From: Trypanosoma brucei
Lineage: Eukaryota
Length of the DNA: 64,000 bases
Direction of reading: 5' to 3'
Assembly (NCBI GenBank): GCA_000002445.1
Contig: CP000068.1
Span: 1,440,001-1,504,000 of the forward strand
Under the pieces are notes generated by a model. It made no database searches. It worked only from the letters and a program-made list of their open reading frames with translations, and was not told the DNA's origin. Positions 3,655-64,000 of this stretch are shown here, piece by piece. The position numbers were made by a program, and so were the translations under genes. Each line of letters begins with the position of its first letter. The first letter of the stretch is position 1.

Positions 3655-3730
3655 TTATTGTTACTGCTCTCATTATAATATTTGTATATACACACACTCG
3701 CAACATACTTCTATTATCCAAAATAATATA
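3655..3730 (-). repeat. 70-bp repeat, single copy
   Basis: '...cattataatatttgtatatacacacactcgcaacatacttctattatcc...' is the reverse complement of the T. brucei 70-bp repeat core (GTGTTGTGAGTGTGTATATACGAATATTATAATG). Confidence 0.75.
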
Positions 3731-4406
3731 AACGTAAAAAAATATCCATTAAATAAACATAATTAACTAAGGTGGAATAAAACTCATTTTTCATGTCCTA
3801 TAACCGTACTACATTACATCAACAGGACACTTTCATACATATTTTATTAAAAATTTTGAAATATACATTGTGATTCCGACCACCTCATCGTGGTGCGAGG
3901 GTCTAGTACTCCGTCCAGAAGGAATCCAACTGCCCCTATCACACACTCTCCGACAGGATTGTGACGAGAAACAGGACTTCTACCACAAGAGAAGGAGAAA
4001 GTAGCAGCATCGGCACTCTGGGGTAAAGAAATATATTAGACTGCTCCTTTGCAGGTGCGAGCGTTCCTCGATTGGGATACATAGGCTTCTACTACTACTT
4101 AGTGGAGATGTATAACAGAATACCAGTCTCATGACTCTTGGAGCCCAGTGGAATGATGGAGGTCTCTCCAAAGCAACGCGGATCGCCTTAGAGAAGAAAC
4201 TCCACAAAGATATGGTAGTCTTCTGTTTATTTTAGGAGACACACTTAGAAGCAGAAAAGTGCTGTGCATTAAAAATCAAAGGATACCAACACATGGTGTC
4301 ACATTCTCTGCATGGTGGTAAGGTATTAATTCTAGTGAGAGAACGCGTGGAAATCATCTAAGGTCCGAAGAAGGAGGGACTGCCGAAAAGTTCCTCGGAA
4401 ACACTG

Positions 4407-13431: not shown

Positions 13432-14940
13432 TCATTAAAATCCTACAAAGCTTATAAATGCAGCAGCCATACTCAGGGCTAAATTCTTACTGACCAGAAA
13501 ACTGGAATCCTGAAACTTGCCTTCAATCCAGCCGCAAACTGCCTTCCTTCTGTGTGGAATATCGCCAATCACAGCTTCACAGTCTGTCTGGTTCTGAAAG
13601 CTGCTGCACACAGGTTTGGCAGTATTACCCCCGTCCTTGCTTTCTCCTGTTTTGTCTGCTGCATCTGATTTGACGTCTGATTCGGGTGCTGTTTTTGTTG
13701 CTGCTTCTGCTGGCTTTTGGTAACGCTTGCTGCTAAAGAAAGAAAAGGCCAGCCCCGCTTCTGGTGTGTTTGCAATCTGTTCTATATTTTTGGTTTCCGC
13801 CTTGCCAGCCACTTTGTACGTCACTTTGGGATGCGTTAATGTTTTTAAAAAGTTTTCTGTGAGTGGTTTGCTGTCATTTCCGAATATATCTGCGACGCGT
13901 TTTTGTAGTTTTTTCTTGTCTTCTTGTTTTTCTGGGTCTAGGATGCCTGGGGGATAAATTAAAAGTTGCGCTGCTATTTTAAGCATGCCTGGATCTTCAG
14001 CAAGCTCCTTGGGGCTAGATGTCGAGACCGCTGTTGGTTGCGCCGGCTACACGGTTCTGGCGTTGCACAACGCTGCTGTTAGGTTGTCGAGAAAGCCATC
14101 TTTTTTGTCTTGCAATTTGGGTTTTGTAGCGCAGGTCGTTCCGCCTGCTGTTCCGTCGAATAAACTCGTCGCTGTGTATTCCTTGTCGTCGTCAAATTTG
14201 AGGTCCGCGCCGATGCCGTTGACTACGCTTTTTCTTGGCTGCGCGCCTGTTGCGCAGTCTTTTGCTGTATTTTGCGTCATGCTGGCAGTGTTGCCGTCGC
14301 CCGCCGCTAGCGCTATAATGGTTGGCGTCCTGTGCGTGAAGAATGTGTCTGGTGCCGCTTTGATTTGTTTAGCTGTCCTTAGTTGTTGGCTTTCCAGCTT
14401 TAGCGCCGGCGTTCGGTCCTCTGTGCTGTCGCATTCACTTCCTCGGCTTGGGGGCTGGTTTAAAGTTATTGTGCATTTTCCTGTGCTTGTCCCACCAGTT
14501 AGCGTTCAGTCATTGTGCGCGAATGTTACAGACTTTTTGGCTGGTTCGCTTTTCCGTCGCATCTTCAACGCAGCTGCTATAAGATCTAACCTGACCGACA
14601 ACTGTTTTAGCGCCTCCCTGCTTGCTACAATTTTTTGCCTGTTTGCCTCCTGTGCTCTGGCTGTCTTGGCTTTGGCGAGTCGCTCCAGCGCGAGGTATCC
14701 TTTTTCTTTGGCGCCGTCGTCGACGGCGGCCACTGCTAGCGCGTATTTTTCACTTTCGGCGCTCATGGCGTCTGTTGCTTTTTGTGCCGCTATTATGTTT
14801 CCTTCAAAGTGCTGTTTTAGTTGCGCCATGTAAACTTTTTCGGTGCAAATGTCAGTTACCGCTGTAAAAGCTGATTGTTCATCTTGGGCGCCGCAGACTA
14901 CTGCAATGAGCATTGTCGCAAACGCCGCCCTGGTACACAT
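13432..14940 (-). pseudogene. VSG pseudogene (3 frame fragments)
   Basis: N-terminal ORF 14506-14940 has the signal peptide 'MCTRAAFATMLIAVVCGA'. A middle fragment is at 14047-14280. The C-terminal ORF 13435-13986 ends '...CGWIEGKFQDSSFLVSKNLALSMAAAFISFVGF*', a class-1-like VSG GPI signal. Confidence 0.8.
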
Positions 14941-16300: not shown

Positions 16301-16520
16301 TTACAATCCATAAAATAAACACAATATGAAGACTTTCATAATGAAACTATCTTTTTAACCATATTACCCTGTTATATTACACCCACAGTCCACTTTCGTA
16401 AAAAATTTCGTATCTTCATTTTCTTTTTTAACAATTTGAAGGTTTTTATCGAAAAGTGTTAAAATACATTAAATTGTTTCTAAATTTTATGAAATTTATA
16501 AAAATATCTATTTTGAAAGA

Positions 16521-17981
16521 AATTTATAAAATTGAGAAAAATTCTAAATATTTTTCATTTGAAGTCAAAAATGCAGGCAAAAGAGGGACCTTATGAATGA
16601 CAAAAGAATTGCTTTCTGTGGTGTTTGTATTTTTGTCATCATTACCTTCTGTTTCTTGGTTTGCTTTTTCTAGTTGTGCTTTCACATCCTTTTTTAACTC
16701 ACACTTTTTGGTGTTTCTATCAAATATACAGCCTTTCTCCTTTAGAGTTTCACATTTTCCTTCGTCACCTGTCGCCTCATTGCATAGTTTCTCCTCTGGT
16801 GTCGGTTGGGCTGACGAACAGTTGCAAGCATCCGCGGCTGTAGGGATGTTTCTTTGAATGGCTTTGTTGATCGTGTAGTTTGTTTCTAGTTCAGTGAGTA
16901 AGGGTAGGTTACTGATCTCAGCAAGTTTCGTCCCCTTCGTAACCCCGTGGGAGTCCTCTGCTAGCGTCATTGTTTTCAGTTTATTCCAGAACATTGTTGT
17001 TGGATCTGGGTCTTTGCTGCCGTACAGTTTTTCCATTGCTTGCTCTTTTTCCTGTCCGCTGAAGGGTTTGCTGGCGCCAACGGCTGCTGCAAGCGTGGCG
17101 TCAAAGTTGGCAAGGTTTTTCAGGGCATTTTTGTCGGGAAGCTCGATGGTGTTTATTACAAGTGCCGGCTGTGACAATTTGTTGAATGATTTTTCGGCAT
17201 GCCTTTTCTTAGAATCGCCTTCTGGCCCTGCTAGGCTGCTGAGGTCCGTGAGTTGGGCGTCCGTGCTGCTTAGACTGATGAGCCCCATAGCTACGTGTTT
17301 GTTGGCGCCGTAGGTTGCGCTTTCTACCGGGCCGTTGTTGTTGCCGCCGCCGTGTATTTTGCAGCCTTTTGCGTTGGTCGACCATAGGTTGTTTTTGTCT
17401 GTTTTGCGTTTGTACCCCCCTGGTCGATGCGCACTTTTGTCTTGCCATCCTGTTGTGTGTCCGAGGTCGGTCGCTTTGCAATTTGCTACCTGCGCCGCGA
17501 GTTGGTCGCTTGTGTATAAAGTCCCTGCGTTTTCGTCATCTGCAAAACAACCGTTGGTGTTGGCGTTTGTTGCTTGTCCCGCTATATTCAGATACTCGTA
17601 GAGGCCGCGGAGCAAGTAGTTGCTCCGCCTTATAGCTTCTATTGCCAACATTGCGGTTGCTTTAGTAAACTTGGCTGCTTCCTCTGCTGCTGTTCTGTGC
17701 AGGGCGGCGCTGATTGCTTGTAGTTGTAGTGCCTCTTGGGCGGTCGAAGCTGCTGCTATTAGTATCCGTACCTTGGCCAAGACGGCTTGGTTCGCCGATA
17801 GCTTGTCTGCTGCCGCCGTTAGGCCATCGGCGTGAACCTGCTCCTTGGCCCTGACTTCTGCCGCAATATCGCAAACCTGCTCCAAGCCATTCTTTGTGAG
17901 TGCTTTGTCGTTGGCTGCTTTTACCTTCGTCCGGTTCGCTGTACCGCAAAGGAGCAGTATTAGCGCTATCCAGTGGTGCAT
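16521..17981 (-). CDS. VSG with full-length ORF but lost canonical stop and extended GPI-signal tail (probably non-functional)
   Basis: Single 508-codon ORF 16524-18050. The likely start is 'MHHWIALILLLCGTANRT' (signal peptide). The VSG C-terminal domain '...KGCIFDRNTKKCELKK...TNTTESNSFVIHKVPLLPAFL' continues as 'TSNEKYLEFFSIL*' instead of ending '...LLLAFLLF*'. Confidence 0.8.
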
Positions 17982-19544
17982 ATGTGTTGTGCCGAAAAAG
18001 TAAGCTTTTGATCCACTTGAATGTGCGTGTCTCTGCACCAGTAGTGGCACTGGCTGTGGTTTATGTGACCCTTCCTATCGCTGTGGAATTCACTGAGATA
18101 TTTGCGGCGGTATTATTCCTGTAGCTTAGCTCTGTTGAGGTGGTGGTGGTTTTTTGGCCTTGATTTCCTGCGTTTCACTTTGTCTGTGTTTGGTCTGTGG
18201 CGTGTATATTGTCGTAGGCACCCAGCCTTTTGTAGATTCAGTGCCTACAGATCGGCGTAGTTGTGCAGTAAATGGGTGTGAAGTGGTGCTGTTTTACTAG
18301 AGAGTTGTGCTGTATTACCCACAAACATAAAATGAGAAGTGCTACAAGCTGCCCGTCAGTTTGCTTCTGCGAAACCTGGAAATATCCGTTTACAAAATTC
18401 TCGGCCATCCTGACTCCTCACCTACCAAATACCCATCTGATTTCCCACCAGATCAACCTTCTATTTCTATAAAACAGTGAGAAACTCCATATATATAAAG
18501 TATCTTTCATTTATTGTTTTAATGGATCCTATTTTGTTCTTATTTTCATGCACCACTTTCCGGTGGAATGATAATGAACAGCTGTGGTTTTCATGAGAAC
18601 ATAACGGCTTTCGTACCCGCTCTATATATTGGAGGACTTGACCTGCAGTTCCGATTAAGCAGTGGCCATTTGTGGTTTGTCTGCAATTTATTTAGCTGCT
18701 GATATTTCTTTATTCCCTCCATTAAACTAGGATCTTCTTTATTCCTAATATTGAGCGCTGGATAATTGAATGCGGATAATGTTTAGCTTCTCTAAGGTAT
18801 CTAATAAGAGTTATCTTCCAAGTTATTTTTTGTATCTCATAACTGTCCTTTAACAATTCATATATGTACTATTTTCTGCAATTTCCGCTGGTTTCCTCTT
18901 CTTTTCCTTTCCACAGTAATCTATTAGTAATCATAGTTTTAAATTTTTTTATACATAATATTATAATGTTTCCCACAAGTGTTAGCCATTATTACTATAT
19001 ATGAAGAACAGAAGAATTTGACAATACATCACACTCACCCAATCCGTACGACCTCTTTCTTCTTCACCTCTGAACATTAGGATCCTCCATCAGATTAAAA
19101 ACCACAGCCACAAAAATAATCTACGCTGTGCTATCTATCTATTTTTAAATAAAACACTAGGCATCATTGACTCATACTTCTTTTTTAATGATATATTATT
19201 TCACATTCTGTTGTTTCATCTTACATTTTCTTTCCCTCTTCTCCAACAACTTTTATAATCCATACGGGTTACATACGGACTCTATTACGCATCTGCACTT
19301 GACTACGGCTCACCCTTAGTGTTTTTCATTACATTATAGTTTATAAAGATTATCAGCTTCATATTTGTGGACGAAACTGTGCATATTTTATTTTCCTCCA
19401 TGTATTTCTTTTTTTGCGTTGCTTACTAATAATATTACTCGCGCTTTCGCCTTCCAACTTCCTTACTCACCTACTCCAACTGCACTAGCGCCAGTATCTT
19501 AGGCACTTCTATCTTTCGTTGTCTGTTTTGTCTTCAGAAGAAAT

Positions 19545-29759: not shown

Positions 29760-30240
29760 GATAACGAATATAGGAAAAATTTGATTGAACATGGCTGGCT
29801 GCCGAATAAGGTGGCCAACCGCTTTAAAAAAACCGGCACGCCGTTTAAAAAAATATATTTAACAAAGCTACAAAAAAAAGAATTCAAAAAATTCAAAAAC
29901 CTAAAAAAATAGGGGGAAAGGAAATCATGTGACTGCTGTCGCTTAAAAAATTAAAAGGTTAAAATAAAAAATTAAAGTCGAAAAAAATTTAACCGTAAAA
30001 AAAACAAGTCGTAGCGTCACCGCGAATGAAAAAAAAAAACTGGGTTGACGGCGTGGGTAGGAAAAAAGTCGCCGCTAGACTGATGTCGAAAAAAGTTAGG
30101 GTCCGCATAACAAAACAGCCGCTGAATCACTTTTAAAAAAATTAAAAAATTAGCAAACTTATTGTAAACAAGTAAAAAAAAGAGCAAAAAAACAAAAACA
30201 ATTAAATGAAAGAAAATCAAAAAATAGTTAGAGTAAAATT
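29760..30240. other. A-tract-punctuated low-complexity block abutting the telomere repeats
   Basis: Short GC-rich islands of 10-20 nt ('ccggcacgccg', 'gtgactgctgtcgc', 'gtcgtagcgtcaccgcg', 'gggttgacggcgtgggtagg', 'gtcgccgctagactgatgtcg', 'cagccgctgaatcac') are separated every ~20-35 bp by A6-A11 tracts, often as 'ttaaaaaa(a)tt'. No coding potential on either strand. It is unlike the VSG flanks elsewhere in the window. Confidence 0.5.
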
Positions 30241-30243
30241 AAA

Positions 30244-30360
30244 CCTAACCCTAACCCTAACCCTAACCCTAACCCTAACCTTAACCCTAATCCTAACCCT
30301 AACCCTAACGCTAACCCTAACCCTAACCCTAACCCTACCTAACCTCCTAACTAACTAACC
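30244..30360 (-). repeat. Interstitial telomere repeat tract, (TTAGGG)n on the minus strand, ~17 units
   Basis: Reads 'cctaaccctaaccctaaccctaaccctaaccctaaccTtaaccctaaTcctaaccctaaccctaacGctaaccctaaccctaaccctaaccctacctaacctcctaactaactaacc'. The variant and degenerate units cluster at the VSG-proximal (right) side. That is what a subtelomere-telomere junction looks like when the chromosome end lies to the left. Confidence 0.9.
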
Positions 30361-30474: not shown

Positions 30475-30490
30475 GTGTTAAAATATATCA
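30475..30490 (-). promoter_or_regulatory. VSG 3'UTR 16-mer stability element (perfect match)
   Basis: 'gtgttaaaatatatca' is the reverse complement of TGATATATTTTAACAC. It lies ~40 nt downstream of the stop of the VSG at 30531-31987. Confidence 0.85.
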
Positions 30491-30530: not shown

Positions 30531-31987
30531 AAATTAAAAAAGCGAAAATTCAGGCCAAAGAGGGACTTTGTTAATCACAAATGAATTGCTTGCTGTGGTG
30601 TTTGTGGGTTTTCCATCTTCTTTTTTTCCCTCTACTTCTTTGTTGGCTTCCTCACTCAGTGTGCACTTTTTGTTTGCATCAGTGGCATTCTCTTTCCATT
30701 TGCATGGGGATTTGCATTCATTTTGTCCCTTCTTGTTGCAGGTTTCTTCTGTTTCAGTGATTTGCGGTTTGCATGCCTTTTTAGCTGCATCAGCTACCGC
30801 TAACATACTTTTGCCTTCAAAGTAACTGACTGCTACTTCGAAATCGTCAGACCTTGCTATATCCTCTAGCGACTTTTCAGGTTGGTCCTTTTCCAGTTTT
30901 TTGAAACTTACTCGCGTGCTTTTCAGTCCAGTAATAAATGTCGCCGAAAAATTTGAGGCATCTCCTATTAGTTCTTGCAATGCCCCTTGTACTGCCGTCT
31001 TCCCTTCGCCTGTTGTTGGGTCGCTTACTTTCTTTGGCCCCATCATCAAATTGTTTGCTGCTTGTAGTGCTTCTGGCGAATTTTTTATCGCTTCTGGGGT
31101 TATTGCTGCAAGTGATGGCGCCGGATTTGCTGCGCTTTGTTGGGCCTCGCAAAGCAGCCGAGCTAGTCGATCGCTGGGTGGCTCGTCGGCGGTGCTGCTC
31201 GGGGCGTCTTTGCATTTGGTTTCTCCGTGAGTTGTTTGTTTCAGCGGCTTGGGTGTCGTCCCAGTTTGCGTCGTTCCTGGCCATGTTATTCCGGCGGTTA
31301 GAGTGCCGGTGCCGCTGTTGGCTGTTATGCACGTTGTCCCGCTGGCTCTGCTGAATGTGTCTGATGCCAGCGTGTTTGTTAGAGTTGCGCCGTTCGTTAG
31401 TACTGCGAGATCCGTTGTGTCCGATACTTTGATTTTTGTGGCGGCTGTTGGTGCCGTCAAGGGTACATTAACACCCGCGTCCGCCAGAGTTTTGAAGTTG
31501 CAGCTGCTGTCGGGGCGGGCAGTTATCGTCATCGTCTGTTTGCACGTTGTTGAGTCAGGCGTCGTCGCTGTTCCTAGAGTTGCTGTTTTCTGAAGCTCGA
31601 AAGCATGCTGGCGCCCGCGTAAATAGCCTTCGTGTCGGGACATTGCTACGATGAGGTCGACCTCTTTGTGCATCTTCTCGTTCTGTGCCTTGCCGACTTG
31701 CTTCAAGAGGGTCGTCGCATACGCTTTTAGAACAGCGTAGAAATGCTTTTTTTCGGGTCTGTCTCCACTCCCCTTGCGAGGTCCCACACTTTTGTCATCG
31801 TTGCAAGGCTTTCGCTGCTTGGGCCGCTTTGTTTAATTCGCGGAGTGTAAGTTTCGACAGCTGTTTTGAAATAAACTGCTTCTTTGCATGGAGTGTTTAT
31901 TGCGCTAAGCATGTCGTCCTCTGGTGTCGCCTGCGAGATGGTTACCACCGCTGCATAAAACAGAAGGCCGACCGTGGATGGTGCCAT
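30531..31987 (-). pseudogene. Telomere-repeat-adjacent VSG, full length except one frameshift and an altered GPI tail
   Basis: N-terminal ORF 31727-31987 has the signal peptide 'MAPSTVGLLFYAAVVTISQA'. The main ORF 30534-31787 (417 codons) carries a VSG N-terminal domain and the C-terminal domain '...CNKKGQNECKSPCKWKENATDANKKCTLSEE...NTTASNSFVINKVPLWPEFSLF*'. The two frames overlap over 31727-31787, which contains a T7 homopolymer (~31747-31753). The frameshift could therefore be real or a sequencing indel. Confidence 0.85.
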
Positions 31988-33239: not shown

Positions 33240-34030
33240 GCGTTTAGTCTTTATTATTATCATTATTATCATTAATGTTATTACTGCTCTCATTATAATA
33301 TTCGTATATACACACTCACAACACTTTCCTATTATTATTATTACTATTTATACTATTACTGCTCTTATTATAATATTCGTATATACACACTCACAACACT
33401 TTCCTATTATCATTATTATCATTAATGTTATTACTGCTCTCATTATAATATTCGTATATACACACTCACAACACTTTCCTATTATCATTATTATCATTAA
33501 TGTTATTACTGCTCTCATTATAATATTCGTATATACACACTCACAACACTTTCCTATTATCATTATTATCATTAATGTTATTACTGCTCTCATTATAATA
33601 TTCGTATATACACACTCACAACACTTTCCTATTATTATTATTACTATTTATACTATTACTGCTCTTATTATAATATTCGTATATACACACTCACAACACT
33701 TTCCTATTATCATTATTATCATTAATGTTATTACTGCTCTCATTATAATATTCGTATATACACACTCACAACACTTTCCTATTATCATTATTATCATTAA
33801 TGTTATTACTGCTCTCATTATAATATTCGTATATACACACTCACAACACTTTCCTATTATTATTATTACTATTTATACTATTACTGCTCTCATTATAATA
33901 TTCGTATATACACACTCACAACACTTTCCTATTATTATTATTACTATTTATACTATTACTGCTCTTATTATAATATTCGTATATACATACTCACAACACT
34001 GTTCTATCATTATTACAATTATAACTATTA
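33240..34030 (-). repeat. 70-bp repeat tandem array, ~10 copies of 76-77 bp, two alternating subtypes
   Basis: Repeated unit '...attactgctct(c/t)attataatattcgtatatacacactcacaacactttcctatta...'. The spacer is either 'tcattattatcattaatgtt' or 'ttattattactatttatact'. The order is II,I,II,II,II,I,II,II,I,I. It lies ~1.25 kb upstream of the telomere-adjacent VSG. Confidence 0.9.
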
Positions 34031-47259: not shown

Positions 47260-47320
47260 TCGTATTATAACAATAGTATGTACATACTCACAATACTCTC
47301 CTATTATTATTATTATACAT
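47260..47320 (-). repeat. 70-bp repeat, single degenerate copy
   Basis: 'tattataacaatagtatgtacatactcacaatactctcctattattattattatac'. Confidence 0.6.
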
Positions 47321-47545: not shown

Positions 47546-47561
47546 GTATTAAAATATATCA
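47546..47561 (-). promoter_or_regulatory. VSG 3'UTR 16-mer (1 mismatch), separated from its VSG CDS by the ingi insertion
   Basis: 'gtattaaaatatatca' lies ~45 nt beyond the ingi poly(A) end. The flank 47320-47605 plus 52887-52935 together reconstitute a normal-length VSG 3' downstream region (~340 bp against ~285-325 bp elsewhere in the window). Confidence 0.7.
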
Positions 47562-47605
47562 AATTATCTGAGTAGAAGATTCCAAAATTTTTCTAAATTT
47601 CCTAA

Positions 47606-50600
47606 TTTTTTTTTCATTGTGCATTTATTGTGCTCGTGCTTCGGTAGGGTCGTTACTGCTCCTGTGGCTCTGCAAACCAGAAAGGGACGTTGAGCGCAAC
47701 GGGGATCCCATCCTCGCTTTATTGAATGAAACTTTGAAGCTGATTGACTTATCCGCAGTTTCAGCTTCAAGGGGACGTTTCCTCATGGTTTCTGCAGTGC
47801 ACACCCATAACGACTTCGCTGCCGCAGAGGTGTGGTAGGCGAAATCCAACTCCGTGGGCGACCAGTGCCTCTTCACGGCTTGAGTGGGCCCAGATGTTGA
47901 CTCTAAGATTGGGGGGAGGGGGCAGATGGGCTCTCTAGGTTTAAGAGCTCCTTCAGGAAGCTGGCTAGTTGCACACTGAAGAACACTTCCTCGTCCTTCA
48001 GGGTTTCCAGACCGTGCTTTTCCCTTAGTGCTCGCAAGCTTGGGCACTGAAAGAGGTGCACTGCAGACTCCTTACACTTCACCTTCACTGAGTTATACTC
48101 AGCTTTCTTCTTCAGTTGGCCGTGCTTCGCGTGCAGGTGTATCGTGAGGCACTGCTTGACTGTGCACTTCATTTGGCAGTATGGACACTGGAGTGACCTT
48201 TGCAAAAGAGGTGTTACCGCTACCGTGCGGTCCTTCAGCTTCCGTTTCACTGCCGTGGCGTGCTCATGATGTGTGCGCGTGTGTCAAATCAGTGAGCACC
48301 ACTGCTTGTACGCCCTGCTGCGTCTATCATACACATAGTCCATTCCCTCTTTTCCTTCTGTGTGGCGGCCCACCCGAGGACGCTTCTGCGGTCTCTCCCC
48401 ATTTTCCCTTCCTGCTGACTCCAATGACCCACTCACCTTACTCTTTGCCTGAGCTTATGCTTTCACTACCTTTCGCTTTGCCTTCTCTTGTGGCTGAGGA
48501 CGCAATGACTCGTCGTGACCCGGGTGCTTTTCCAGCATGTGTCGCAGCAACCATCTGTAATGATATTGCTTTCTAAAAATGGAACACGCCACTGTAACCG
48601 ACTGCTCTGCCATGTTAGAGTCTTCCGAGTTCGTGTTCGAGGTTGGTTCGCACTTGTGCCTGGTGGGCCATGTCTTGCTTTTGAGGACGCGTTGGCACCT
48701 GTAGCATACAAATTCCTTTTTATCCTGCTCCTCCTGCTCTGCATCGCCATCACTGTCGGACGCGTCCTGTGACTCTATGGCGCTGCGCCTTAACTGCTTT
48801 TCCGGGTTTTTCTGCAGCCACGCGTGTACAGTGTACTTTTTCGCACACCAACGCCATTTGAGTGCGTTGCCATTATCGGCCCCATCTTACTCCACTGCTG
48901 GCACTCTATCCGGAGGGTGCTGTGCCATATACTCCACGAGTAGCCCACACCGCTCAAAGACATCACCGCACACATGACATCTGTAACCATTCTTATGCGT
49001 CTGCACCGCACCCTTAGCTTTCTTGGTCAGTGCTAATGCATAATTCCTCCCCAGACCATGAATCTTCACTAGGTGCACCACGTCAGGCTTTCTCCGCCCG
49101 CAAACCACGTTGAACAATCGGCAAGTGATCTGGTCGTTGCTCCTTGTCGCGATTCCAGGATATGGTGCGTTCGCATTGTCCGATGCTTACTCCGCCCCCC
49201 GGGCGCTCCTCTGCTGTGTCGCTGCGTGGTTCCTGCGTGTCGCACCGTATGCATCCAAGCTGGTCCGTCTTGCGTGTGAGCACCCTGTTAAGCGATCCAA
49301 AATGCTTCGAAGTGCCTGTTCTGAAGTGCGCCATCAGCGTCTCACCCAGACGTACCAGCCTTGTGTGCTTCGGTGCGGCCCGAACGTAGTCGAGTAGCGC
49401 ACTACGATGCGTACGCGGCATCCGGACCTCCTTGAAGGCCTTGTATACCGCATTCCCGACCTTCCTCTCCACACACGTCACTATGTCAGTGATCCATGCT
49501 GGATACGACTGCAGCTTTGTGTTTCCCTGCTCAACTGCCTTTTCAGCAGCTTCATCGCGCGGCACCCCGCAGTGTGAGAACACGAAATGGAAGTTGACGG
49601 ACACAAGAAGCCGCACAATACTCAAGATAAGATCCCAAATGCGTCCCAGAATCGAGCCCTCCACAACTTCAGGGCCAGTGCTCAGCGCCATCAACAGCGA
49701 AATTAAATCCGTGAGGGTCACCACTCTCGTTCTGTGCGTCTTGCTTAGCTCCATGAAATCCGCTAGCCTCTTCAACCCCGCCTCCATCGCCGCACATTCC
49801 GTGCGATAGCTGCAGGATGGCGACCCAACTCCCAGGGCAACCTTCTTCCGCTTCCTCTCTTTCGGGTACACAAGGGCACCTGCGCCTGAAGAGACGTCCA
49901 GCACCACGGACCCGTCCGTCCACACCTGGTTATCATAGTCCTTGAACAACTGTACCTGCCGCATGGTGTGCACCTTCTTGTCCCTCCCCGGCGCACCCGC
50001 TTTGAGGCCGCCTGGCTCGTTGGTGTTAAAGTGGACGCACGTGGCCATCCGCAACACCGTCGCATCGTGTGGATTCTCAGGGCCATCAATGGTGTTTTAC
50101 GGACGCTGTACCGTCGCAAGCATGACATGGGCTGGATGCTCAGGCGGGAATATGCTGTTCGTAATTTTTAATTGCGTTGGGCACTCTGCTTTCAGGCGTA
50201 GATAGCATGCCAAGGCTCTCAGGTGCGCCATATCATTTATAAACTTTAGCCGAGCTTCTCACACGGCATCCTCCCGATTGGCTGCCTTGGGAATACCCGT
50301 CATTATGTGTGCTGCCTGTGCCTGCACCCTCTCTAGCCTCTCATGATCCGACAGCGAGGAATCGGACCACCATGAAGCAATGCCGTAGAATATCTTAGCC
50401 CGGACCAGCACTAGGTAGAATGCTCGCAGTTTCTCCCTGTCTGGGCCCCATTCTGGCGACACCACTGCCCTAAGCTGCATGAGCCGCGTGTCTGCCGCTG
50501 CCTTCACGCTCCGTGCATGCTTGCTCAAACCCTTGTGCGGCTGCACGGTAATACCGAGCAGCTTCGGTGTGTACACTTCCTTCAACACAGTCTCTCCAAT

Positions 50601-52886
50601 CCTCAGGTAAAGCAGGTTTGTGTCCCGCGCACCGAACAGTGTGTACTCAGCTTTCCCCGCTGACCAATTTGTGACTCAACTCAGTCCTTGTTGAACGGTT
50701 CGCTGGATTGCATTCAGGTCAGAGCTCGTGCATACTATTGTGAGGTCGTTCGCAAAGAAAACGTGCTGCAACCCAGGGATGCAGTTCAGCCGCTTGCTCG
50801 GCGAATCCACCTTGACAATGAACAGCAGTGGACCATGCACCGAGCCCTGAGGGACCCAGCATGTGAGGTGTATGTTCTCAGACAGCATATTGCTCGCCCC
50901 CACCCGCGCGGTGCGACCCTGCAGGAAGCCCGCAATTCACGCCACCAGATGCTTCTCAACTCCAAATGTCTCTAGTGCCTTAACCATGCAGCCGTGATCA
51001 ACCGAATCAAAAGCGCGCGCATAGTCAATAAATACAGCTGCTGTCTTCTCACCGTCCCTCCTCCGCCGCACTGCGCTTGTCACCTGCATGAGCGTGTCCA
51101 GCGTCGACTGCGCCGGCATGAAGCCTGCTTGCTGTGGCTGCAGATTGTCTTCAATGCAGTTCCTAACACGACGTGCCACAATGTGCTCCATCACTTTGCA
51201 CAGCGTGCTGATGAGAGTGGCCGGCCGAAAGGACGCGGTACTGCTAGCTGGCTTGCTCGGCTTAAGCAGCGGGACTGTGATGCCGTGCCTCCACTTGGCT
51301 GGTACCCTCCCCGCGCGCAGACTGCAGATGAACAGTCGCAGCGCACACTTTTTGGCTACTCATCCTAGCTGCTTCAGCTCCTCTCAGTGGATTCCATCAT
51401 CGCGCGCCGCCGTGCCAGAATGCAGCTCACACAGCGCAACTTTCAGCTCTGACTCGGTGACCGGCCGGAACGCGCTCCGTCTGGTGCTGGGTATCTTCAT
51501 TTCTGGCGCATGTGGTGCCTTCGTTGACCTGGCCTTGTACATGTTGACCAAAGTTTGTGCTTACTGGCGCTTTGTCAACCGATGGCCATTCACCACCAGC
51601 ATTGGCGAAGTCAACGACCGCGGCGCATATACCGACTTCACCAGGTTCCAGTTCGCCGAATCCGTGGTCGCCGGCTTCGACACATTTTCCTTCCACCAAC
51701 CCAGCGCCGTTTCAGCCAGCGCTTTCTTCCTCCAGCGAGTCAGCCCGTCCAGATTCGTCAGCCCCTGTGTCCAGAACGGTAACGCTACGCCCTTGCCCTT
51801 GGGAATTGTCCTCTTTGCGGCCATTCGGATGCCTCATGTCACCGCCTCGTCGAGGGCATCCGCGCCCTTGTCCGGCCTCTTCATTCCTCTGAATATGAAC
51901 TCGTCACTCAATTTTCTAAACTCCTGTCACCTCGCTTTGTTCCGTGCATACAGTGTACGTGTGGGCTTGGGGGGGGGGGCAATCACGTCTAGGCAGGTGC
52001 CCCACGAACACATCGAACGTGATCTAATAATGATCACTGTGCGGGCTCAGTGTGTATGCCAAGTTAGAGATCTCGCGCAGCCTCCACACAACGTGATGTC
52101 CGGCGACGATAGTGCACCCGTTCCCGGCTGCCTCCTGGTGATCGATCCGGTATTCGCAACTTTCAGATCGCTCTGCACGCACCAGTTGACTACGCACTCT
52201 CCCTTGTCGTCGCTCGGACGAAACGGATCCCACAACACGTGGTGTGAGCTCACGTCCGCTTCTGCTACCAATGGCCCGCTTTCTACCGCTAATTGTTTCA
52301 ACTATGCTTTTGAATTCATCGATTTTCTAGGAAAATAAGCTGAAGCGCCTGCCAGGTTCACAGCAGCAGAAAATCGCAGCGTCGCTGTCACTTTTTCTGG
52401 CACTTCCTTGTCCATCTTTCACACCCCCACTCCCACCCCTGTGCGGTGTTTTTGCCACAACTACATGCTGCTATCCGCCTATTTGAAGCGCAGCACACTC
52501 CACCGACGCTAGGAGTGTCTCCTGCAAGAGACAAAATAAAACCATATCCTCATGAATCTTCCTCTTCATGACAACCCGCTTCGACTGGAAGAAACCCCTA
52601 AATTTCCACTGGTTTCCACGAATAACGGGAGCAAGATTCGTCTCAACATCTTCACTAAGTAGTAGTATAAGCCTTTTTATCCCAATCGAGGTAAGGTTGC
52701 ACGTGCAGAGGAGCAGTCTAATATATTGCTTCACCCTAGAGTGCCGATGCTGCTACATACTTCTTCTCTGGTCGCCGAAAGCCCCCTTTCCACCCCAATC
52801 ATGTTAAACAGGGCATAATGCGGGCGCTTGTCTTCCTCCTGGATAAAGTACTAGACCCCGGCACCACATTGAGGTGACCGGCATCA
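47606..52886 (-). mobile_element. ingi: ingi non-LTR retrotransposon, ~5.28 kb, degenerate (frame-broken)
   Basis: The 5' end (minus sense) is '...ccatggtgatgccggtcacctcaatgtggtgccggggtctagtactttatccaggaggaagacaagcgcccgcattatgccc...', the RIME/ingi terminal region. The 3' end is '...gagcacaataaatgcacaatg' plus A9 (poly-T at 47606-47614 on +). Internal minus-strand ORF fragments cover the endonuclease (52047-52301), 51561-51824, RT (50937-51194 '...AAVFIDYARAFDSVDHGCMVKAL...', 50676-50903, 50259-50588), RNase H (49083-50057) and C2H2 zinc fingers (48887-49117 'HVCGDVFERCG', 47903-48250 'CPYCQMKCTVKQCLTIHLHAKHG'). The coding region is interrupted by multiple frameshifts. Confidence 0.9.
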
Positions 52887-52935
52887 CCATGGAAATCTGC
52901 AAATTTTAGTAAAAAAAAGAGCAAGAATTCATAGA

Positions 52936-54540
52936 ATTCTAAAATGCCACCAAACTCATAACAGCAGCAGCCATACTCAGGGCCATTTTCTTATTTACAA
53001 AAAAACTAGAATCATTGCACTTGTCTTCAATTCGACCACAGTTGGCTTTTTCTCCGGGTTTGTGACCCTCATTTTCCTTTTCACAGTCCTTTTTTTTGGT
53101 ATGTCTTGTGTACCTATTTGACTCACGTTTCCCATCATTCCACCATTTTTCTTGGTTTTCTTTTTCTACTTTCTTTTTGGCCTCTTCACTCAATGTGCAC
53201 TTTTTTCCTTCGCCTCCTTTGGGGTTAAAAACGCACCCCTTATCCTTTAAGTTTTCACATTCTTTCTGGTTGTCGTTTGCTGTTTTGCAAACTCGTTCTG
53301 CTTCCTTTGTGGCTCTTAGGTGGTCTGTTGCGGGTTGGTTGCCGCTACTTTGCCCCGTTGTTGCTGCTGCAAATAGTTTGCTCTCAGATGCCAGTCCTTC
53401 GGCTGCCTTTGAGAGGAGCGTTAGAGAAGCTGCTAAGGCATTGCTTGTGCTTGCTGCTGTTGCTCCTGCTCGCATTGCTGCTGCTGCAGTTTCAATTTTT
53501 GTTGCCCATGCTAGCTCCTGCATACCTTTTTTGCCTGTTTTATATTTGGGCATTTTGAAGCAAACGCCGTTTGTTCTTGTCCCGTCGCAGGTCGCTGCTC
53601 CGTCAGTGGTGCCGAAGTAAGCGTCCGTTTTGAAAATCTTGATGTGGCTTTCTAAGCTCCGCAGCGCTGTGAGCATCTTGTCCGGTGTTATTTCCTCCTC
53701 CGTATTGAAGTTACAGTCTTTTACCAAGGCGTCGTATTGGTTTTTGATATCGTTTTCCGCTGCCAGGTTATGTGCTTTTGGTGCATGGTTGCTGGCGTGA
53801 TCACTGCAGATCTTGTTTGCGCCCGTTGGGATGTCTGAGTTTCCTTGGGTGCATACACAAATTAAAATGTCCGCTAAGCAGTCGTCAGTGCCTGTTACCG
53901 TGCCTGCTCCGCAGAAAGCTGCCGAGGCCCTTGCCGCTGATGTTTTCCCGGCATCGGTGAACTCTTTTGCCGCTTCCCCTGTTCCGATCGCCGCCTCTGT
54001 GAGCAGTTTTTTAATCTTTGCTGGTTCGGCATTGTCGATGGCTGCCTGAAGACTCTTGATTTTGGTCTGTAGGGTTGAAGCTTGTTCTAGAATGAGGCTC
54101 ATTCTTGTTCGCGCAAGCTTTAGCTGTTGGTCTGTTATGGATAGTTTGGAGAAGTTGCTGGGTCTGCTGTCGGCGCCGTGCTTCTTGAAGACTCTTTCGG
54201 CGCTTGCTGCCCATTCCGCCCAGCTGGAAGCCCAGTGAGAATTTTCTTTGGCTGGCGACGTTTGCGGGTCCCATTGCTTCTGGGTTCCGTCTGGTTTTAG
54301 AAATTGATTTACCCACGCGGGTCCCCCTAAAGTCATGTTAACGTCGTTGATAGTCTCCATTGCGTTTTGCCATTCCTGTTCCTGGTCTGGAGCTTTGATC
54401 TTCCCTGCTTGTAGTTGTAATACACTGCACAGAGCTTTATAAACGCTGGCGTGCGCTGCGGTTGCAGTGTCGGCGTCACTGCTTTGTGGTACCATCATCA
54501 AAATGACTGACGCTGTTGCTGCGTAACCTGGCATTGCCAT
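52936..54540 (-). CDS. Intact VSG gene (b-type N-terminal domain), 533 codons
   Basis: Single uninterrupted ORF 52939-54540. Signal peptide 'MAMPGYAATASVILMMVPQSSDA'. N-terminal domain with '...CLADILICVCTQGNSD...'. Two Cys-rich C-terminal subdomains '...CKTANDNQKECENLKDKGCVFNPKGGEGKKCTLSEE...CEKENEGHKPGEKANCGRIEDKCNDSSFFVNKKMALSMAAAVMSLVAF*' give a canonical GPI signal. Confidence 0.9.
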
Positions 54541-56094: not shown

Positions 56095-56170
56095 ATTTTA
56101 ATATTTGTATATACACAATCACAACACCATCCACTTATCATTTCTATTATAATACTAAATTATTCCTAAT
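56095..56170 (-). repeat. 70-bp repeat, single copy
   Basis: 'ttttaatatttgtatatacacaatcacaacaccatccacttatcatttctattataatact'. Confidence 0.7.
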
Positions 56171-61330: not shown

Positions 61331-62629
61331 AAGAAAAGCTAATATGACGTGTGGATTCATCTGGTAGTCTGCTTTGCCTATAAAGTTAAAAGTGTAGTCA
61401 AAACGTAGTTACTGACACATCTGGATAGTTATTAGGTGCTTTTGGTTTGTATTTTTGGCGGTCTAACTAGATTTCGTTTTTAATTTTGATTGTAATTTAG
61501 ATGTAGTCTTCTACTTCCGCTATTCTGATCTATATCGTTCTATTCCTATATCTAAAACCATTAAAATTTATGGTTTCTTTGAGTCAGTCTATTTCAGTTC
61601 AACTTTTCTGGCAGGATGTATCGGCTACAATGATTTATCGCTAATTATTTGGCAGTACGCATGATTGTAAGCATTTCGCACTGTAGTGACATCCTATTAT
61701 CGGTTTCTTTAGTCTTTTACACGGCAACTGCGTTACCTCGCGCACTTTTTTTTCTATTGAATCTTCTTGTTACACTTCTTCAATACCGCGTCACCGTGTA
61801 TTTTTATGCTAATTAGCCACTCTTTAAACAGTCGTAGTGTTTGGCCGTTGAACCAATATGGTAGTGGTGGTGTATCATTACAAACTTTTAACACCCCACA
61901 CCAACCTCCTATAACGGCTGATGCACGCACCATTTTAAGAAGTTTTCGCATCTTCACCCTTCCTCTTCTCGCCAAAGAAATTCATTATTAGTCTTGGTTT
62001 TATACTTACTCTCCCCATAATATTACATTGCTTTCCACAATGTTTGACTATTACCACTATTTCTTATTGGAAGAAGGCCCCACATTACCTCGTATTTATC
62101 TAATTTCTTCTTTCTGCTGTTGGTGTTCCTATTTTTTAAAAGCTGGATATTAGAATTCACCATTAAATTAAAAACCACGTTTGCTACTATTGTTTCTTCA
62201 ATGGCACATATATCAAATTTTAGTAAAATACGTGGGGTTATCGGTTACTGTTTCGTGTGCTTTTTTGTTACGAAGTCTTGTAGTGTATCGTTTTATGCCA
62301 TATTTTATTATCTTCTTTTCCTTTTTTCTTCTCTAAATACTTCTGTAGATGACTTAGAAATTTCATTTGGATACTAAAGAGGACTCTTTCTTTTCCTCAT
62401 TGCCCCTTTCATCATTCCCTTGCGCATAATGATGACCATGTGCCTGTCTCTGATTGACACCTGGAATCTTCAAAATTTCTTCCCTTTATGTTTCTCTTTC
62501 TGCTTTCCATTTTATAATACAACGTGTGCTTGACGTTTCGTTTAATTAAACCCCCACTTTCTTACTTCAATTTTACCCTTTTTGTTGCCTTCAGTTTTTC
62601 CATTTGTCTACTCATTCAGTAATTAAAAT

Positions 62630-62710
62630 TTTGTTCTTATAATATTCGTATATACACACTCACAACATATTCCAATCACTATCATCATCATTATCATTAT
62701 TCCCTACTTA
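62630..62710 (-). repeat. 70-bp repeat, single copy
   Basis: 'ttataatattcgtatatacacactcacaacatattccaatcactatcatcatcattatcattatt'. Confidence 0.75.
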
Positions 62711-62949
62711 ATATCCATAAATAAACTAAATTAGAATATCACTTATTTTCCACACCCTATTGCCATACTACTTTGAACCTGTAGTTCACTGTCATACACA
62801 TTATACAAAATTTCATATTTATCAAATTCTCAAAGGTTTCGAAGGTTATACAAAAGTTTTAAAATGCATCAAATTTTAGTAAGTTTTAGAAATTATCTCA
62901 AGATATAAAATTTCATAAATTTCATAATATTGAGCAGAAAATCCTAAAT

Positions 62950-64000
62950 ATTTTTCATTATAGAAACAAAGCTACAAGCAAAAGAGGGGCCTTGTTAATG
63001 ACAAATGAATTGCTTCCTGTGGTGTTTGTGGTTCCAGTTTTTCCTTCCGTTTCTTGGTTTGCTTTTTCTGCTGCTTGTTTGCCTTCCTCACTCAATCTGC
63101 ACTTTTTGTTTTCCTCGCCATCGTTGTTGAAAACACACCCCTTATTCTTTAGCTTTTCGCAGGCTTTTTGGTCGTCTTTGGCTGCATTGCAAATTTTTCC
63201 TTGTTTTCTGCTGATTCTGTTTCCTGTTTTTTGCTCACAGCGTCTAGATTTTTCTTGAGAGTTACCACATTTTGTGCGGCTATCATCTCGTAATTGCTAA
63301 GGATGTCTCCTAACTCCACTGTATCGTGAATTTTTGCTAGGGGTGTTTCAGTGGTTCTACCTGCAATACCAGCTGGTATTATCTCGGCATTCACCATATC
63401 GAGGTATGTTTTTGTTTTGTCTGCTGCTAGGCCACCGAAAAGTGCTTCCAGCTTTGTTTTCTCTGCGTTGGGCTCAGTGCTGCCCTTTGGCAGCAACAGT
63501 GTTTTTACTAGCGCTTTGAGTGTCGGCCGTGTATCCAGGTTTCCAGTTTCGTTTGTGTAGGCTATGTCTGTTGCCTTTGATTCGCTGTTTCGTGCTTCCC
63601 ATGCTTCGTGCCACGCCGGGGCGGTTGCTTTGTGACCAGCTCCCATGGCTTGCATGTTTGCTAGCGTTGCTTCCACCGCTGTCGTCGGTATTGTCATGTA
63701 CCCTCTGAGCACCCGCGGTGCGCTGTCCAGGGCCGAAGTGGCCGGGTAACCATTTGTGTTGTGGCCGCTCAGCAATTTGCATGTTCCAGTGCTTTCTGCT
63801 GGCTGGAAGGTGTTATCCGTCTTTCCACCGCCGTGTCGTAGATTTGGATATCCAGCTGCCGTTAGTTCAGTTCGAGTTCCTGGTCCTGCTGTTGCTGGTG
63901 GCATGTTGAGGTCGCATTCTTCGGAGTCTAGCGTGGTTCCCGCTCGGGTTGCGGGTGTGTCAGCATCAGTTGTTACTAGGCACATGTTTTGTGTTCCGCC
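62950..64000 (-). pseudogene. VSG, 3' two-thirds; 5' end beyond the window; frameshift between body and C-terminal domain
   Basis: ORF 63149-63985 (278 codons) has no start inside the window and is VSG N-terminal-domain-like. The C-terminal region ~62975-63150 translates in another frame to '...KACEKLKNKGCVFNNDGEENKKCRLSEE...GTTNTTGSNSFVINKAPLLL...'. Confidence 0.75.

What the first reader, a model, noticed from the sequence alone, without database searches (positions are those of the whole stretch)
47546..54540. ingi retrotransposon inserted inside the 3'UTR of the only intact VSG, between stop codon and 16-mer
The intact 533-codon VSG ends at 52936. The 5' end of a 5.28 kb ingi starts ~50 nt later (about 52886). 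The VSG 16-mer (one mismatch) is found only ~45 nt beyond the ingi poly(A) end at 47561-47546, so the two flank pieces sum to a normal VSG 3' region. Degenerate ~11-nt target-site-duplication candidates flank the element: 'aaatttgcaga' (reverse complement of 52891-52901) and 'aaatttagaaa' (reverse complement of 47591-47601). The 16-mer is required for VSG mRNA stability, and the conserved 3'UTR is a common 3' boundary for duplicative gene conversion. This intact VSG is therefore physically separated from both. Any conversion that used the UTR as its boundary would have to copy 5 kb of ingi or end within the CDS or C-terminal domain instead.
Basis: partly seen in the sequence, partly recalled or inferred. 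Interest (0 to 1): 0.65.

Follow-up and report, generated by a model that had tools for sequence, protein, structure and literature searches.

The report
Old ingi element splits VSG 3'UTR
A long-dead 5.3 kb ingi retrotransposon sits inside the 3' untranslated region of a silent, already annotated "atypical" surface-coat (VSG) gene of Trypanosoma brucei TREU927, cutting the coding sequence off from its mRNA-stability motif; this is real but fairly ordinary, because such genes normally borrow their 3' end when they are used.

Summary
The core observation holds. Window = T. brucei TREU927 chr 5 (NC_007278 1,440,001-1,504,000). A 533-codon VSG ORF (54540..52939, minus strand) is followed by 46 nt of 3'UTR. 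Next comes a full-length 5,287-bp ingi-clade LINE (52892..47606). Then come 44 nt of UTR and a one-mismatch 16-mer (47561..47546).

I fixed the boundaries with independent copies and the L1Tc Pr77 start. The 5' end is 52892, not ~52886. An in-register vestigial 12-bp TSD (ATTTGCAGATTT / ATTAGGAAATTT, 9/12, p≈0.01-0.03) abuts both ends. Removing the element restores a 79-nt stop-to-16-mer UTR, collinear with neighbouring VSG UTRs of 81 and 90 nt.

The element is dead: at least 16 in-path stops, at least 2 frameshifts, and RT motif FAND.

The VSG is annotated "atypical" because one CTD cysteine is missing. It is not the only uninterrupted VSG ORF in the window.

The functional reading is overstated. 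3' donation inside the CTD is routine (57% of expressed TREU927 VSGs). A T. evansi relative switches its C-terminus at that point.

A public TREU927 ingi table already lists this element. It shows at least 5 other ingi 5' ends just after VSG stop codons, so this is probably a recurrent target. Interest is low to moderate.

The parts
56105..56150 (-). Single degenerate 70-bp repeat. It marks the upstream (5') recombination boundary of the focal VSG cassette.
   Evidence: The 70R-TALE target AGGAGAGTGTTGTGA matches with 3 mismatches at 56119-56133. The sequence reads ...GATAAGTGGATGGTGTTGTGATTGTGTATATAC.
52939..54540 (-). VSG coding sequence, 533 codons plus TAG. It has a B-type N-terminal domain and a two-subdomain CTD, and is annotated 'VSG, atypical' (XP_845139.1 / AAZ11580.1).
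   Evidence: ORF. Pfam VSG_B 3.7e-66 and Trypan_glycop_C 1.3e-21. 100% identical to the TREU927 protein. 529/533 identical to EATRO1125 VSG 1125.200. The second CTD subdomain reads Y-x8-C-x14-C-x6-C, where a neighbour reads C-x7-C-x5-C-x6-C.
53176..53205 (-). CTD block encoding KKCTLSEEAK. It is a likely internal 3' recombination boundary.
   Evidence: The T. evansi relative P0002 diverges immediately after this block. The block is 85% identical over 41 nt to the ex-telomeric cassette at 30631-30671. That falls within the homology range reported for 3' donation (PMC3708902).
52893..52938 (-). 3'UTR part 1, the 46-nt stub still attached to the CDS. It contains no 8-mer and no 16-mer.
   Evidence: Read directly from the sequence. 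It aligns to the first half of neighbouring VSG 3'UTRs.
52893..52904 (-). 5' copy of the vestigial 12-bp target-site duplication, ATTTGCAGATTT.
   Evidence: It abuts the first base of the element. It matches the 3' copy at 9/12, p = 0.009-0.03.
47606..52892 (-). Full-length but degenerate ingi-clade non-LTR retrotransposon, 5,287 bp.
   Evidence: The 5' end was set by alignment with two other Pr77-type starts and the L1Tc +1 primer. The 3' end was set by two T. equiperdum copies whose homology stops at the A-run. Identity is 64-77% at amino-acid level to Tvingi and T. equiperdum proteins. The conceptual ORF path has at least 16 stops, at least 2 frameshifts and RT motif FAND. The element is listed as an INGI/RIME hit at NC_007278 1492646-1492896.
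52814..52892 (-). Pr77 / '79-bp signature' region at the 5' end of the element.
   Evidence: CCATGGTGATGCCGG aligns with the L1Tc 5'Pr77 primer CCCTGGCTCAGCCGG. The ingiR-TALE target GCCGGCCACCTCAAC matches at 13/15 at 52882-52868. Alignment A2 supports the same placement. There is no Rfam hit.
50678..51245 (-). Reverse-transcriptase domain of the element. It is inactivated: FAND replaces the xADD catalytic motif at about 50759.
   Evidence: Pfam RVT_1 4e-23 on the conceptual translation and 8.8e-09 on ORF 50937..51194. Motif shown.
47606..47614 (-). A9 tail of the element.
   Evidence: Homology with L001 and L002 ends here.
47595..47606 (-). 3' copy of the vestigial TSD, ATTAGGAAATTT. Its first A is shared with the tail.
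47562..47605 (-). 3'UTR part 2, 44 nt. It includes an 8-mer-like CTTCTACT at 47578..47571.
   Evidence: It is collinear with the second half of neighbouring VSG UTRs.
47546..47561 (-). VSG 16-mer with one mismatch (TGATATATTTTAATAC).
47288..47302 (-). 70-bp repeat core of the next cassette downstream. It shows that the 16-mer sits in the normal array position.
   Evidence: 1 mismatch. The spacing of about 245 nt compares with 165-200 nt behind the other 16-mers in the window.

Best explanation
An ingi-clade LINE integrated by target-primed reverse transcription into the AT-rich 3'UTR of a silent subtelomeric array VSG. The insertion point is 46 nt after the stop codon and upstream of the 8-mer-like and 16-mer motifs.

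The copy has since decayed, or was already defective when it was mobilised in trans. It is not a recent event.

The effect is purely structural. The VSG ORF is now 5.3 kb away from the UTR motifs that stabilise VSG mRNA and that can serve as a downstream homology tract.

If this gene is ever used, the likeliest route is the ordinary one. Upstream homology would come from the 70-bp repeat. The downstream crossover would fall inside the CTD-coding region, for example at the conserved KKCTLSEEAK block. The expression-site copy would then supply the rest of the CTD, the GPI signal and an intact 3'UTR ('3' donation'). That route would also replace the defective, cysteine-poor second CTD subdomain.

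Shown: element identity, boundaries, degeneracy, UTR reconstruction, atypical CTD. Inferred: the TPRT origin from the vestigial TSD, the age of the insertion, and the activation route.
For: Boundaries:
- The 5' start CC at 52892 aligns with two other Pr77-type starts and with the L1Tc +1 primer.
- At the 3' end, homology with two T. equiperdum copies that have unrelated flanks stops at the A-run at 47606.

Insertion signature:
- An in-register 12-bp TSD matches 9/12, p = 0.009-0.03. 12 bp is the size reported for Tbingi/RIME (PMC3820030).
- The reconstructed empty site gives 79 nt from stop to 16-mer, against 81 and 90 nt in same-class neighbours. It aligns across the junction: ATTT|AGAAAAATTTT against ATTTGAAAGAATTTT.
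- The next 70-bp repeat follows at a normal distance.

Dead element:
- At least 16 in-path stops, frames 3 to 1 to 2, and FAND in the RT.
- 82-84% nucleotide identity to the nearest retrieved copies.

VSG status:
- Annotated 'atypical'.
- One CTD cysteine is missing.

Activation route:
- 3' donation occurred in 57% of expressed TREU927 VSGs. Boundary homology was above 85% over 13-143 bp (PMC3708902).
- The focal CTD block is 85% identical over 41 nt to an ex-telomeric cassette in the same window.
- T. evansi P0002 shares 87% identity up to KKCTLSEEAK and then has a different C-terminus.
Against: - The TSD has 3 mismatches in 12. It lies in low-complexity AT-rich sequence where similar out-of-register matches occur, for example an 11/14 match.
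- I could not retrieve a canonical Tbingi/RIME reference or any orthologous locus from another strain. Identity to active ingi, polymorphism of the insertion and a true empty site are therefore untested.
- The VSG ORF is intact while the adjacent element carries about 3 stops per kb. Either the ORF is younger than the insertion (renewed by conversion), or the element was already defective when inserted. The age is therefore uncertain.
- The provenance of the T. evansi sequence (cDNA or genomic) is unknown, so it may not be a 3'-donation product.
- No expression data for this gene were found.
Confidence: 0.8

Rival explanations
1. The arrangement is not a simple insertion. Two different VSG cassettes, each with an ingi nearby, were joined by homologous recombination between ingi copies. 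On this view the 16-mer downstream never belonged to this VSG.
For: The TSD is imperfect at 9/12. ingi and RIME are known to mediate rearrangements (PMC2854126). Several other TREU927 VSGs have an ingi 5' end just after the stop codon, so partner loci exist.
Against: The candidate TSD is exactly in register at both ends, with p about 0.01-0.03. The two flank pieces add up to a normal UTR length and are collinear with neighbouring UTRs across the junction. There is no VSG coding remnant between the element and the 16-mer. The next 70-bp repeat sits at the usual distance.
Confidence: 0.1
2. This is a recent, possibly strain-polymorphic insertion that has newly disabled a functional VSG donor.
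For: The VSG ORF is uninterrupted and 99% identical to the EATRO1125 orthologue. Defective LINE copies can in principle be mobilised in trans, so degeneracy alone does not date the insertion.
Against: The TSD is already 25% diverged. The element has at least 16 stops and a mutated RT motif, and is only 82-84% identical to the nearest copies found. The TALE target that has about 470 exact matches in Lister 427 has 2 mismatches here. The VSG is 'atypical' irrespective of the insertion.
Confidence: 0.08
3. The insertion reflects a sequence-driven hot spot. The AT-rich VSG 3'UTR matches the target preference of the ingi endonuclease, so ingi elements repeatedly land between the stop codon and the 16-mer. 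This would systematically uncouple array VSGs from their UTR motifs. It is compatible with the best explanation and adds a genome-wide claim.
For: - In the TREU927 INGI/RIME table, hits that continue into the ingi proper are directly preceded by a VSG GPI-signal, stop codon and short UTR. The loci are chr5 1414414, chr10 3981137, chr9 2596341, chr3 62231 and chr6 1443454, plus the focal locus.
- One reference sequence used in that table seems itself to carry about 175 nt of VSG tail before the ingi start.
- The 5' flanks of three independent elements share a TTAYTAAAAWTTT-like motif (p about 0.02).
- ingi-clade elements are reported to have relative site specificity (PMC3820030).
Against: No formal enrichment test was done. 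Some loci may be paralogous copies of one old VSG-plus-ingi unit. My reading of the table's UP_SEQ and reference coordinates is an inference checked only on the focal locus. VSG arrays are rich in transposable elements anyway.
Confidence: 0.4

Closest known systems
Tbingi (ingi/L1Tc clade non-LTR retrotransposon of T. brucei) and its degenerate relatives (DIRE)
   Same: It has a Pr77-type 5' signature and is about 5.25 kb long. The domain order is APE-like endonuclease, RT, RNase H, C2H2 zinc finger. It has an A-tail, a TSD of about 12 bp, and an A/T-rich conserved motif upstream.
   Different: The ORF is destroyed (at least 16 stops, at least 2 frameshifts, FAND). The canonical 15-mer GCCGGCCACCTCAAC has 2 mismatches. 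Identity to the nearest copies retrieved is only 82-84%. It is less decayed than the DIRE-like element at window 3865-~8400, which is about 45% identical at amino-acid level.
ingi element inside bloodstream expression site BES2 of Lister 427 (between the 70-bp repeats and VSG 427-9)
   Same: An ingi lies within a VSG cassette, between the recombination boundaries (PMC2567434).
   Different: In BES2 the element is upstream of the VSG in an activatable telomeric site. Here it is downstream, inside the 3'UTR of a silent array gene.
Other TREU927 loci where an ingi/RIME 5' end directly follows a VSG stop codon (chr5 1.414 Mb, chr10 3.981 Mb, chr9 2.596 Mb, chr3 62 kb, chr6 1.443 Mb)
   Same: The geometry is the same: VSG GPI-signal, stop codon, roughly 40-60 nt of UTR, then the ingi 5' end (PMC4660242 supplement 1).
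   Different: The VSG tails and UTR sequences differ. The 3' junctions and TSDs are not available to me. Independence of the events is not established.
3' donation / segmental gene conversion of VSGs
   Same: It gives the expected way of using this gene: a crossover inside the CTD-coding region and retention of the expression-site 3' end (PMC3708902). The T. evansi relative has that architecture.
   Different: No expressed product of this particular gene has been observed.
RHS (retrotransposon hot spot) genes
   Same: They are another T. brucei gene family in which ingi/RIME insert repeatedly at a preferred sequence. This comes from established knowledge (Bringaud et al. 2002, 2004) and was not re-tested here.
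   Different: RHS insertions are in-frame within the coding sequence at one fixed position. Here the target is a non-coding UTR and the positions vary.

Membership tests
ingi/L1Tc clade non-LTR retrotransposon (Tbingi) | Conserved 77-79-nt Pr77 signature at the extreme 5' end | tested here: met
   CCATGGTGATGCCGG... aligns base for base with the L1Tc 5'Pr77 primer CCCTGGCTCAGCCGG. It matches the ingiR-TALE target at 13/15. It aligns with two other element starts.
ingi/L1Tc clade non-LTR retrotransposon (Tbingi) | About 5.25 kb long, encoding endonuclease, RT, RNase H and zinc finger in that order | tested here: met
   The element is 5,287 bp. RVT_1 scores 4e-23. Exo_endo_phos_2 and the Zn domain score below threshold. 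The RNase H and zinc-finger regions match Tvingi proteins that carry PF00075 and PF00096.
ingi/L1Tc clade non-LTR retrotransposon (Tbingi) | Intact long ORF (potentially autonomous copy) | tested here: not met
   There are at least 16 in-path stop codons and at least 2 frameshifts. The RT catalytic motif reads FAND.
ingi/L1Tc clade non-LTR retrotransposon (Tbingi) | 3' poly(A) tail | tested here: met
   An A9 tail lies at 47614..47606. Homology with L001 and L002 ends there.
ingi/L1Tc clade non-LTR retrotransposon (Tbingi) | 12-bp target-site duplication | tested here: inconclusive
   The in-register pair matches 9/12, p = 0.009-0.03. The literature accepts more than 65% identity as a 'vestigial TSD' (PMC3820030).
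ingi/L1Tc clade non-LTR retrotransposon (Tbingi) | RIME-A and RIME-B halves at the two ends, with high identity to the canonical ingi consensus | not testable with these tools
   No canonical ingi or RIME sequence was available. The only indirect evidence is a public BLAST table, which lists window 52646-52896 as an INGI/RIME 'RIME A' hit with E = 1e-50.
Functional ('intact') VSG | Complete N-terminal domain, CTD and GPI signal in one ORF | tested here: met
   Pfam VSG_B covers profile positions 1-351 of 352 and Trypan_glycop_C covers 1-104 of 104. The C-terminal ...DSSFFVNKKMALSMAAAVMSLVAF is a 23-aa-class GPI signal.
Functional ('intact') VSG | Canonical cysteine pattern of the CTD subdomains | tested here: not met
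   The second subdomain has 3 Cys (Y-x8-C-x14-C-x6-C). The neighbour v19 has 4 (C-x7-C-x5-C-x6-C). The source annotation reads 'VSG, atypical'.
Canonical VSG 3'UTR | Exact 16-mer TGATATATTTTAACAC contiguous with the CDS within about 100 nt | tested here: not met
   The 16-mer has 1 mismatch and lies 5,377 nt from the stop codon. After removing the element in silico the distance is 79 nt.

The most novel reading that the evidence does not exclude
The AT-rich stretch of VSG 3'UTRs between the stop codon and the 8-mer/16-mer is a preferred landing site for ingi-clade retrotransposons. At least 6 loci in TREU927 fit this, and so does a reference ingi clone. If so, retrotransposition recurrently severs array VSGs from their own UTR motifs and downstream homology. 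Their use would then be biased towards 3' donation or mosaic formation.
Probability: 0.4. Interest if true: 0.5.

Novelty: new member of a known kind. Interest (0 to 1): 0.28.

Why it matters
For this single locus it matters little. The gene is silent and annotated as atypical. It would be expressed, if at all, through the routine 3'-donation pathway, which ignores its own UTR.

Its value is as a clean worked example. It gives exact junctions, a vestigial TSD and a reconstructed empty site. These show how transposable elements remodel the recombination landmarks of VSG cassettes.

If the recurrence seen in the public TREU927 table reflects a real target preference, it would link the specificity of the ingi endonuclease to the architecture of the VSG archive. 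It would also bear on how donors are used (whole-gene conversion against 3' donation). That can be tested directly with existing long-read genomes and VSG-seq data.

Tried and rejected
- Exact-protein look-ups of the focal VSG, of P0001 and of two ORFs inside the element found no contigs. No orthologous locus or empty site from another strain was therefore obtained.
- The homology search with the VSG returned only the TREU927 protein and one T. evansi protein. Its cluster adds EATRO1125 VSG 1125.200, but without DNA.
- Literature searches for VSG-200 / 1125.200 and for the T. evansi accession found nothing useful.
- Bringaud 2004, Bringaud 2009 and Marcello & Barry 2007 are not held. I could not quote the published ingi4 target consensus or the archive-wide UTR statistics.
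- I first read about 40 short hits at reference positions 111-176 in the PMC4660242 table as degenerate ingi fragments behind VSGs. I rejected that reading. The focal row shows that UP_SEQ is the sequence immediately upstream of each hit, and that this reference carries about 175 nt of VSG tail and UTR. The short hits are therefore VSG tails. I kept only rows whose hit continues into the ingi proper.
- I considered calling the element a DIRE. It keeps full length, Pr77, the tail and 64-77% amino-acid identity to ingi-type proteins. The true DIRE-like element in the window (3865-~8400) is at about 45%. I therefore describe it as an old, degenerate ingi.

Full report
**Source and context.**
The focal ORF is 100% identical to 'variant surface glycoprotein (VSG, atypical), putative' of Trypanosoma brucei brucei TREU927 (XP_845139.1 / AAZ11580.1). 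That protein lies on a 1,608,198-bp record.

A public table of ingi/RIME hits in TREU927 lists a minus-strand hit at NC_007278 1492646-1492896. Its 100-nt upstream sequence is exactly the tail and UTR stub of our VSG. This places the window at chr 5 1,440,001-1,504,000.

The window is a typical minus-strand VSG array. It holds seven 16-mer-like motifs, against 0.03 expected by chance. It also holds 70-bp-repeat cores and several VSG ORF fragments.

**The observation.**
ORF 54540..52939 (533 codons plus TAG) has a complete B-type VSG N-terminal domain and a VSG C-terminal domain.

Reading the minus strand after the stop codon gives four pieces in order:
- 46 nt of AT-rich UTR: AATTCTATGAATTCTTGCTCTTTTTTTTACTAAAATTTGCAGATTT.
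- The element, beginning CCATGGTGATGCCGGTCACCTCAATGTGGTGCCGGGGTCTAGTAC and ending ...CACAATAAATGCACAATG(A)9.
- A further 44 nt of UTR: TTAGGAAATTTAGAAAAATTTTGGAATCTTCTACTCAGATAATT.
- The 16-mer TGATATATTTTAATAC, with one mismatch.

**Boundaries.**
The 5' end rests on three lines of evidence:
- The L1Tc Pr77 +1 primer is CCCTGGCTCAGCCGG (PMC4748587). Our CCATGGTGATGCCGG aligns with it position for position.
- The ingi TALE target GCCGGCCACCTCAAC lies in the conserved 5' 79 bp and has about 470 genomic matches in Lister 427 (PMC12975129). It matches here at 13/15.
- A second, more decayed element in the window (start 3865, plus strand) and a copy in T. b. equiperdum (L002) align from the same first bases, while their upstream flanks differ.

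For the 3' end, two T. equiperdum copies (L001, L002) are 82-84% identical over about 3.3 kb. They lose homology exactly at the A-run and then continue into unrelated flanks.

The element is therefore 52892..47606, or 5,287 bp.

**What the element is.**
tblastn with Tvingi, Tcoingi and T. equiperdum proteins gives 64-77% identity through the RT, RNase H and zinc-finger regions. A conceptual translation hits Pfam RVT_1 at 4e-23, with weak endonuclease and Zn hits in the expected order.

The reading path moves from frame 3 to frame 1 to frame 2. It contains at least 16 stop codons, and the RT motif reads FAND. A T. equiperdum protein (P0041) shares the same FAND change.

This is an old, dead member of the ingi clade. 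It is less decayed than the DIRE-like element at 3865-~8400, which is about 45% identical at amino-acid level. I could not obtain a canonical Tbingi/RIME sequence, so its divergence from active ingi is unmeasured.

**Simple insertion or not.**
- *TSD.* Tbingi/RIME make 12-bp TSDs (PMC3820030). The pair that abuts both ends is ATTTGCAGATTT | element | (A)TTAGGAAATTT, which matches 9/12. In shuffles, 9/12 or better arises in 0.9% of trials (strict register) to 2.9% (relaxed). None of 364 12-mers from other VSG UTRs in the window reaches it. This is suggestive rather than conclusive, because an out-of-register 11/14 match also exists.
- *Empty site.* Deleting the element and one TSD copy gives a 79-nt stop-to-16-mer UTR. 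The two neighbours with the same CTD class have 81 and 90 nt. The reconstructed sequence is collinear with them across the junction.
- *Array position.* The 16-mer is followed about 245 nt later by the next cassette's 70-bp repeat, as elsewhere in the array.

Together these favour one TPRT insertion into an intact UTR over an ingi-ingi recombination product.

**The VSG.**
EATRO1125 has an orthologue, VSG 1125.200. It is 529/533 identical, has the same length and has the same odd CTD.

The second CTD subdomain has three cysteines and an expanded spacer (Y-x8-C-x14-C-x6-C). A neighbouring VSG has C-x7-C-x5-C-x6-C. This fits the 'atypical' label.

ORF 18050..16524 is another uninterrupted, full-length A-type VSG ORF with a read-through GPI signal. 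'The only intact VSG' is therefore too strong on both counts.

**Consequences.**
The 16-mer is needed for VSG mRNA stability, for CFB2 action and for m6A (PMC8051951). Both it and the 8-mer-like motif now lie beyond the element.

This is a silent donor, however. In TREU927 infections, 57% of unique expressed VSGs showed 3' donation with the boundary in the CTD-coding region. That process uses short homology (above 85% over 13-143 bp) and rescues damaged CTDs (PMC3708902).

The focal CTD contains such a block, KKCTLSEEAK at 53205..53176. It is 85% identical over 41 nt to the once-telomeric cassette at about 30.6 kb.

A T. evansi VSG (P0002) is 87% identical up to exactly this block and then has a generic one-subdomain C-terminus. 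This is consistent with 3' donation, although the provenance of that record is unknown.

Six of the seven array 16-mers in the window are imperfect. Only the one followed by telomere repeats is exact. The insertion is thus unlikely to change how this donor can be used.

**Precedent and recurrence.**
ingi elements in VSG cassettes are known. One example is BES2 of Lister 427, where an ingi lies between the 70-bp repeats and VSG 427-9 (PMC2567434).

In the PMC4660242 table, the focal row shows that 'UP_SEQ' is the 100 nt immediately upstream of each hit. It also shows that one reference carries about 175 nt of VSG tail and UTR ahead of the ingi start. I therefore discarded the many short hits at reference positions 111-176.

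I kept only rows whose hit runs on into the ingi proper and whose upstream sequence is a VSG GPI-signal, stop codon and short UTR:

| Locus | Reference positions |
|---|---|
| chr5 1414414-1420039 | 170-5803 |
| chr10 3981137-3981342 | 171-377 |
| chr9 2596341-2599827 | 144-3630 |
| chr3 62231-62951 | 143-817 |
| chr6 1443454-1443522 | RIME reference, 1-69; 43 nt after TAG |

The upstream flanks of three element starts that I could read share a TTAYTAAAAWTTT-like motif. This fits the reported relative site specificity of the clade.

I did not run a formal enrichment test. The hot-spot idea is a lead (about 0.4), not a result.

**Verdict.**
The structural finding is real and now has exact coordinates. 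It is an old ingi-clade insertion in the 3'UTR of an annotated, atypical, silent VSG in a reference genome, and the element is already catalogued. The functional implication is modest, because 3' donation bypasses it. Interest is low to moderate. The only potentially new angle is the recurrence of the same geometry at other VSGs.

Noticed in passing
window 30240-30337 (with 30475-30490, 30534-31787, 33255-34015): A tract of 16 TTAGGG-type telomere repeats (minus strand) lies about 140 nt downstream of the only perfect 16-mer in the window. That 16-mer follows a VSG-like ORF. Ten tandem 75-bp '70-bp repeats' lie upstream. This looks like a formerly telomeric VSG cassette now embedded inside the array.
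   Followed up: partly
window 3865-~8400 (+): A second, much more decayed ingi-clade element (DIRE-like) lies here. It is about 45% identical at amino-acid level to Tvingi proteins and has a Pr77-type start ACATTGTGATTCCGACCACC. Its upstream flank TTTTATTAAAAATTTTGAAATAT resembles the focal flank TTTTACTAAAATTTGCAGATTT, p about 0.02.
   Followed up: partly
window 16524-18050 (-): An uninterrupted 508-aa ORF has a complete A-type VSG N-terminal domain (Pfam 4e-93). Its GPI-signal region reads through (...VPLLPAFLTSNEKYLEFFSIL). The focal gene is therefore not the only unbroken VSG ORF in the window.
   Followed up: partly
window: 16-mers at 16456, 19779, 23365, 36992, 47546, 59803 versus 30475: Six of the seven VSG 16-mers in this array stretch carry 1-2 mismatches. 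Only the one next to telomere repeats is exact. This suggests that array copies do not keep a functional UTR.
   Followed up: no
TREU927 chr5 1414414-1420039, chr10 3981137, chr9 2596341, chr3 62231, chr6 1443454 (outside the window; PMC4660242 supplement 1): In a published BLAST table, other ingi/RIME 5' ends are directly preceded by a VSG GPI-signal, a stop codon and roughly 40-60 nt of UTR. One reference sequence used there seems itself to begin with about 175 nt of VSG tail.
   Followed up: partly
L002 (T. b. equiperdum CM010675.1) ~13,690-13,715: A Pr77-type element start is preceded by 70-bp-repeat-like sequence (ACTGCTCTTATTATAATATTAGTACAC). ingi-clade elements may therefore also land in 70-bp repeats.
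   Followed up: no
L001 1-280 and L002 7000-7150: The two T. equiperdum copies of the related element are truncated at the same internal position, equivalent to window ~50950-50963. They share the same upstream flank, so they are orthologous or duplicated copies of one 5'-truncated insertion. One of them (P0041) carries the same FAND change in the RT motif as the focal element.
   Followed up: no
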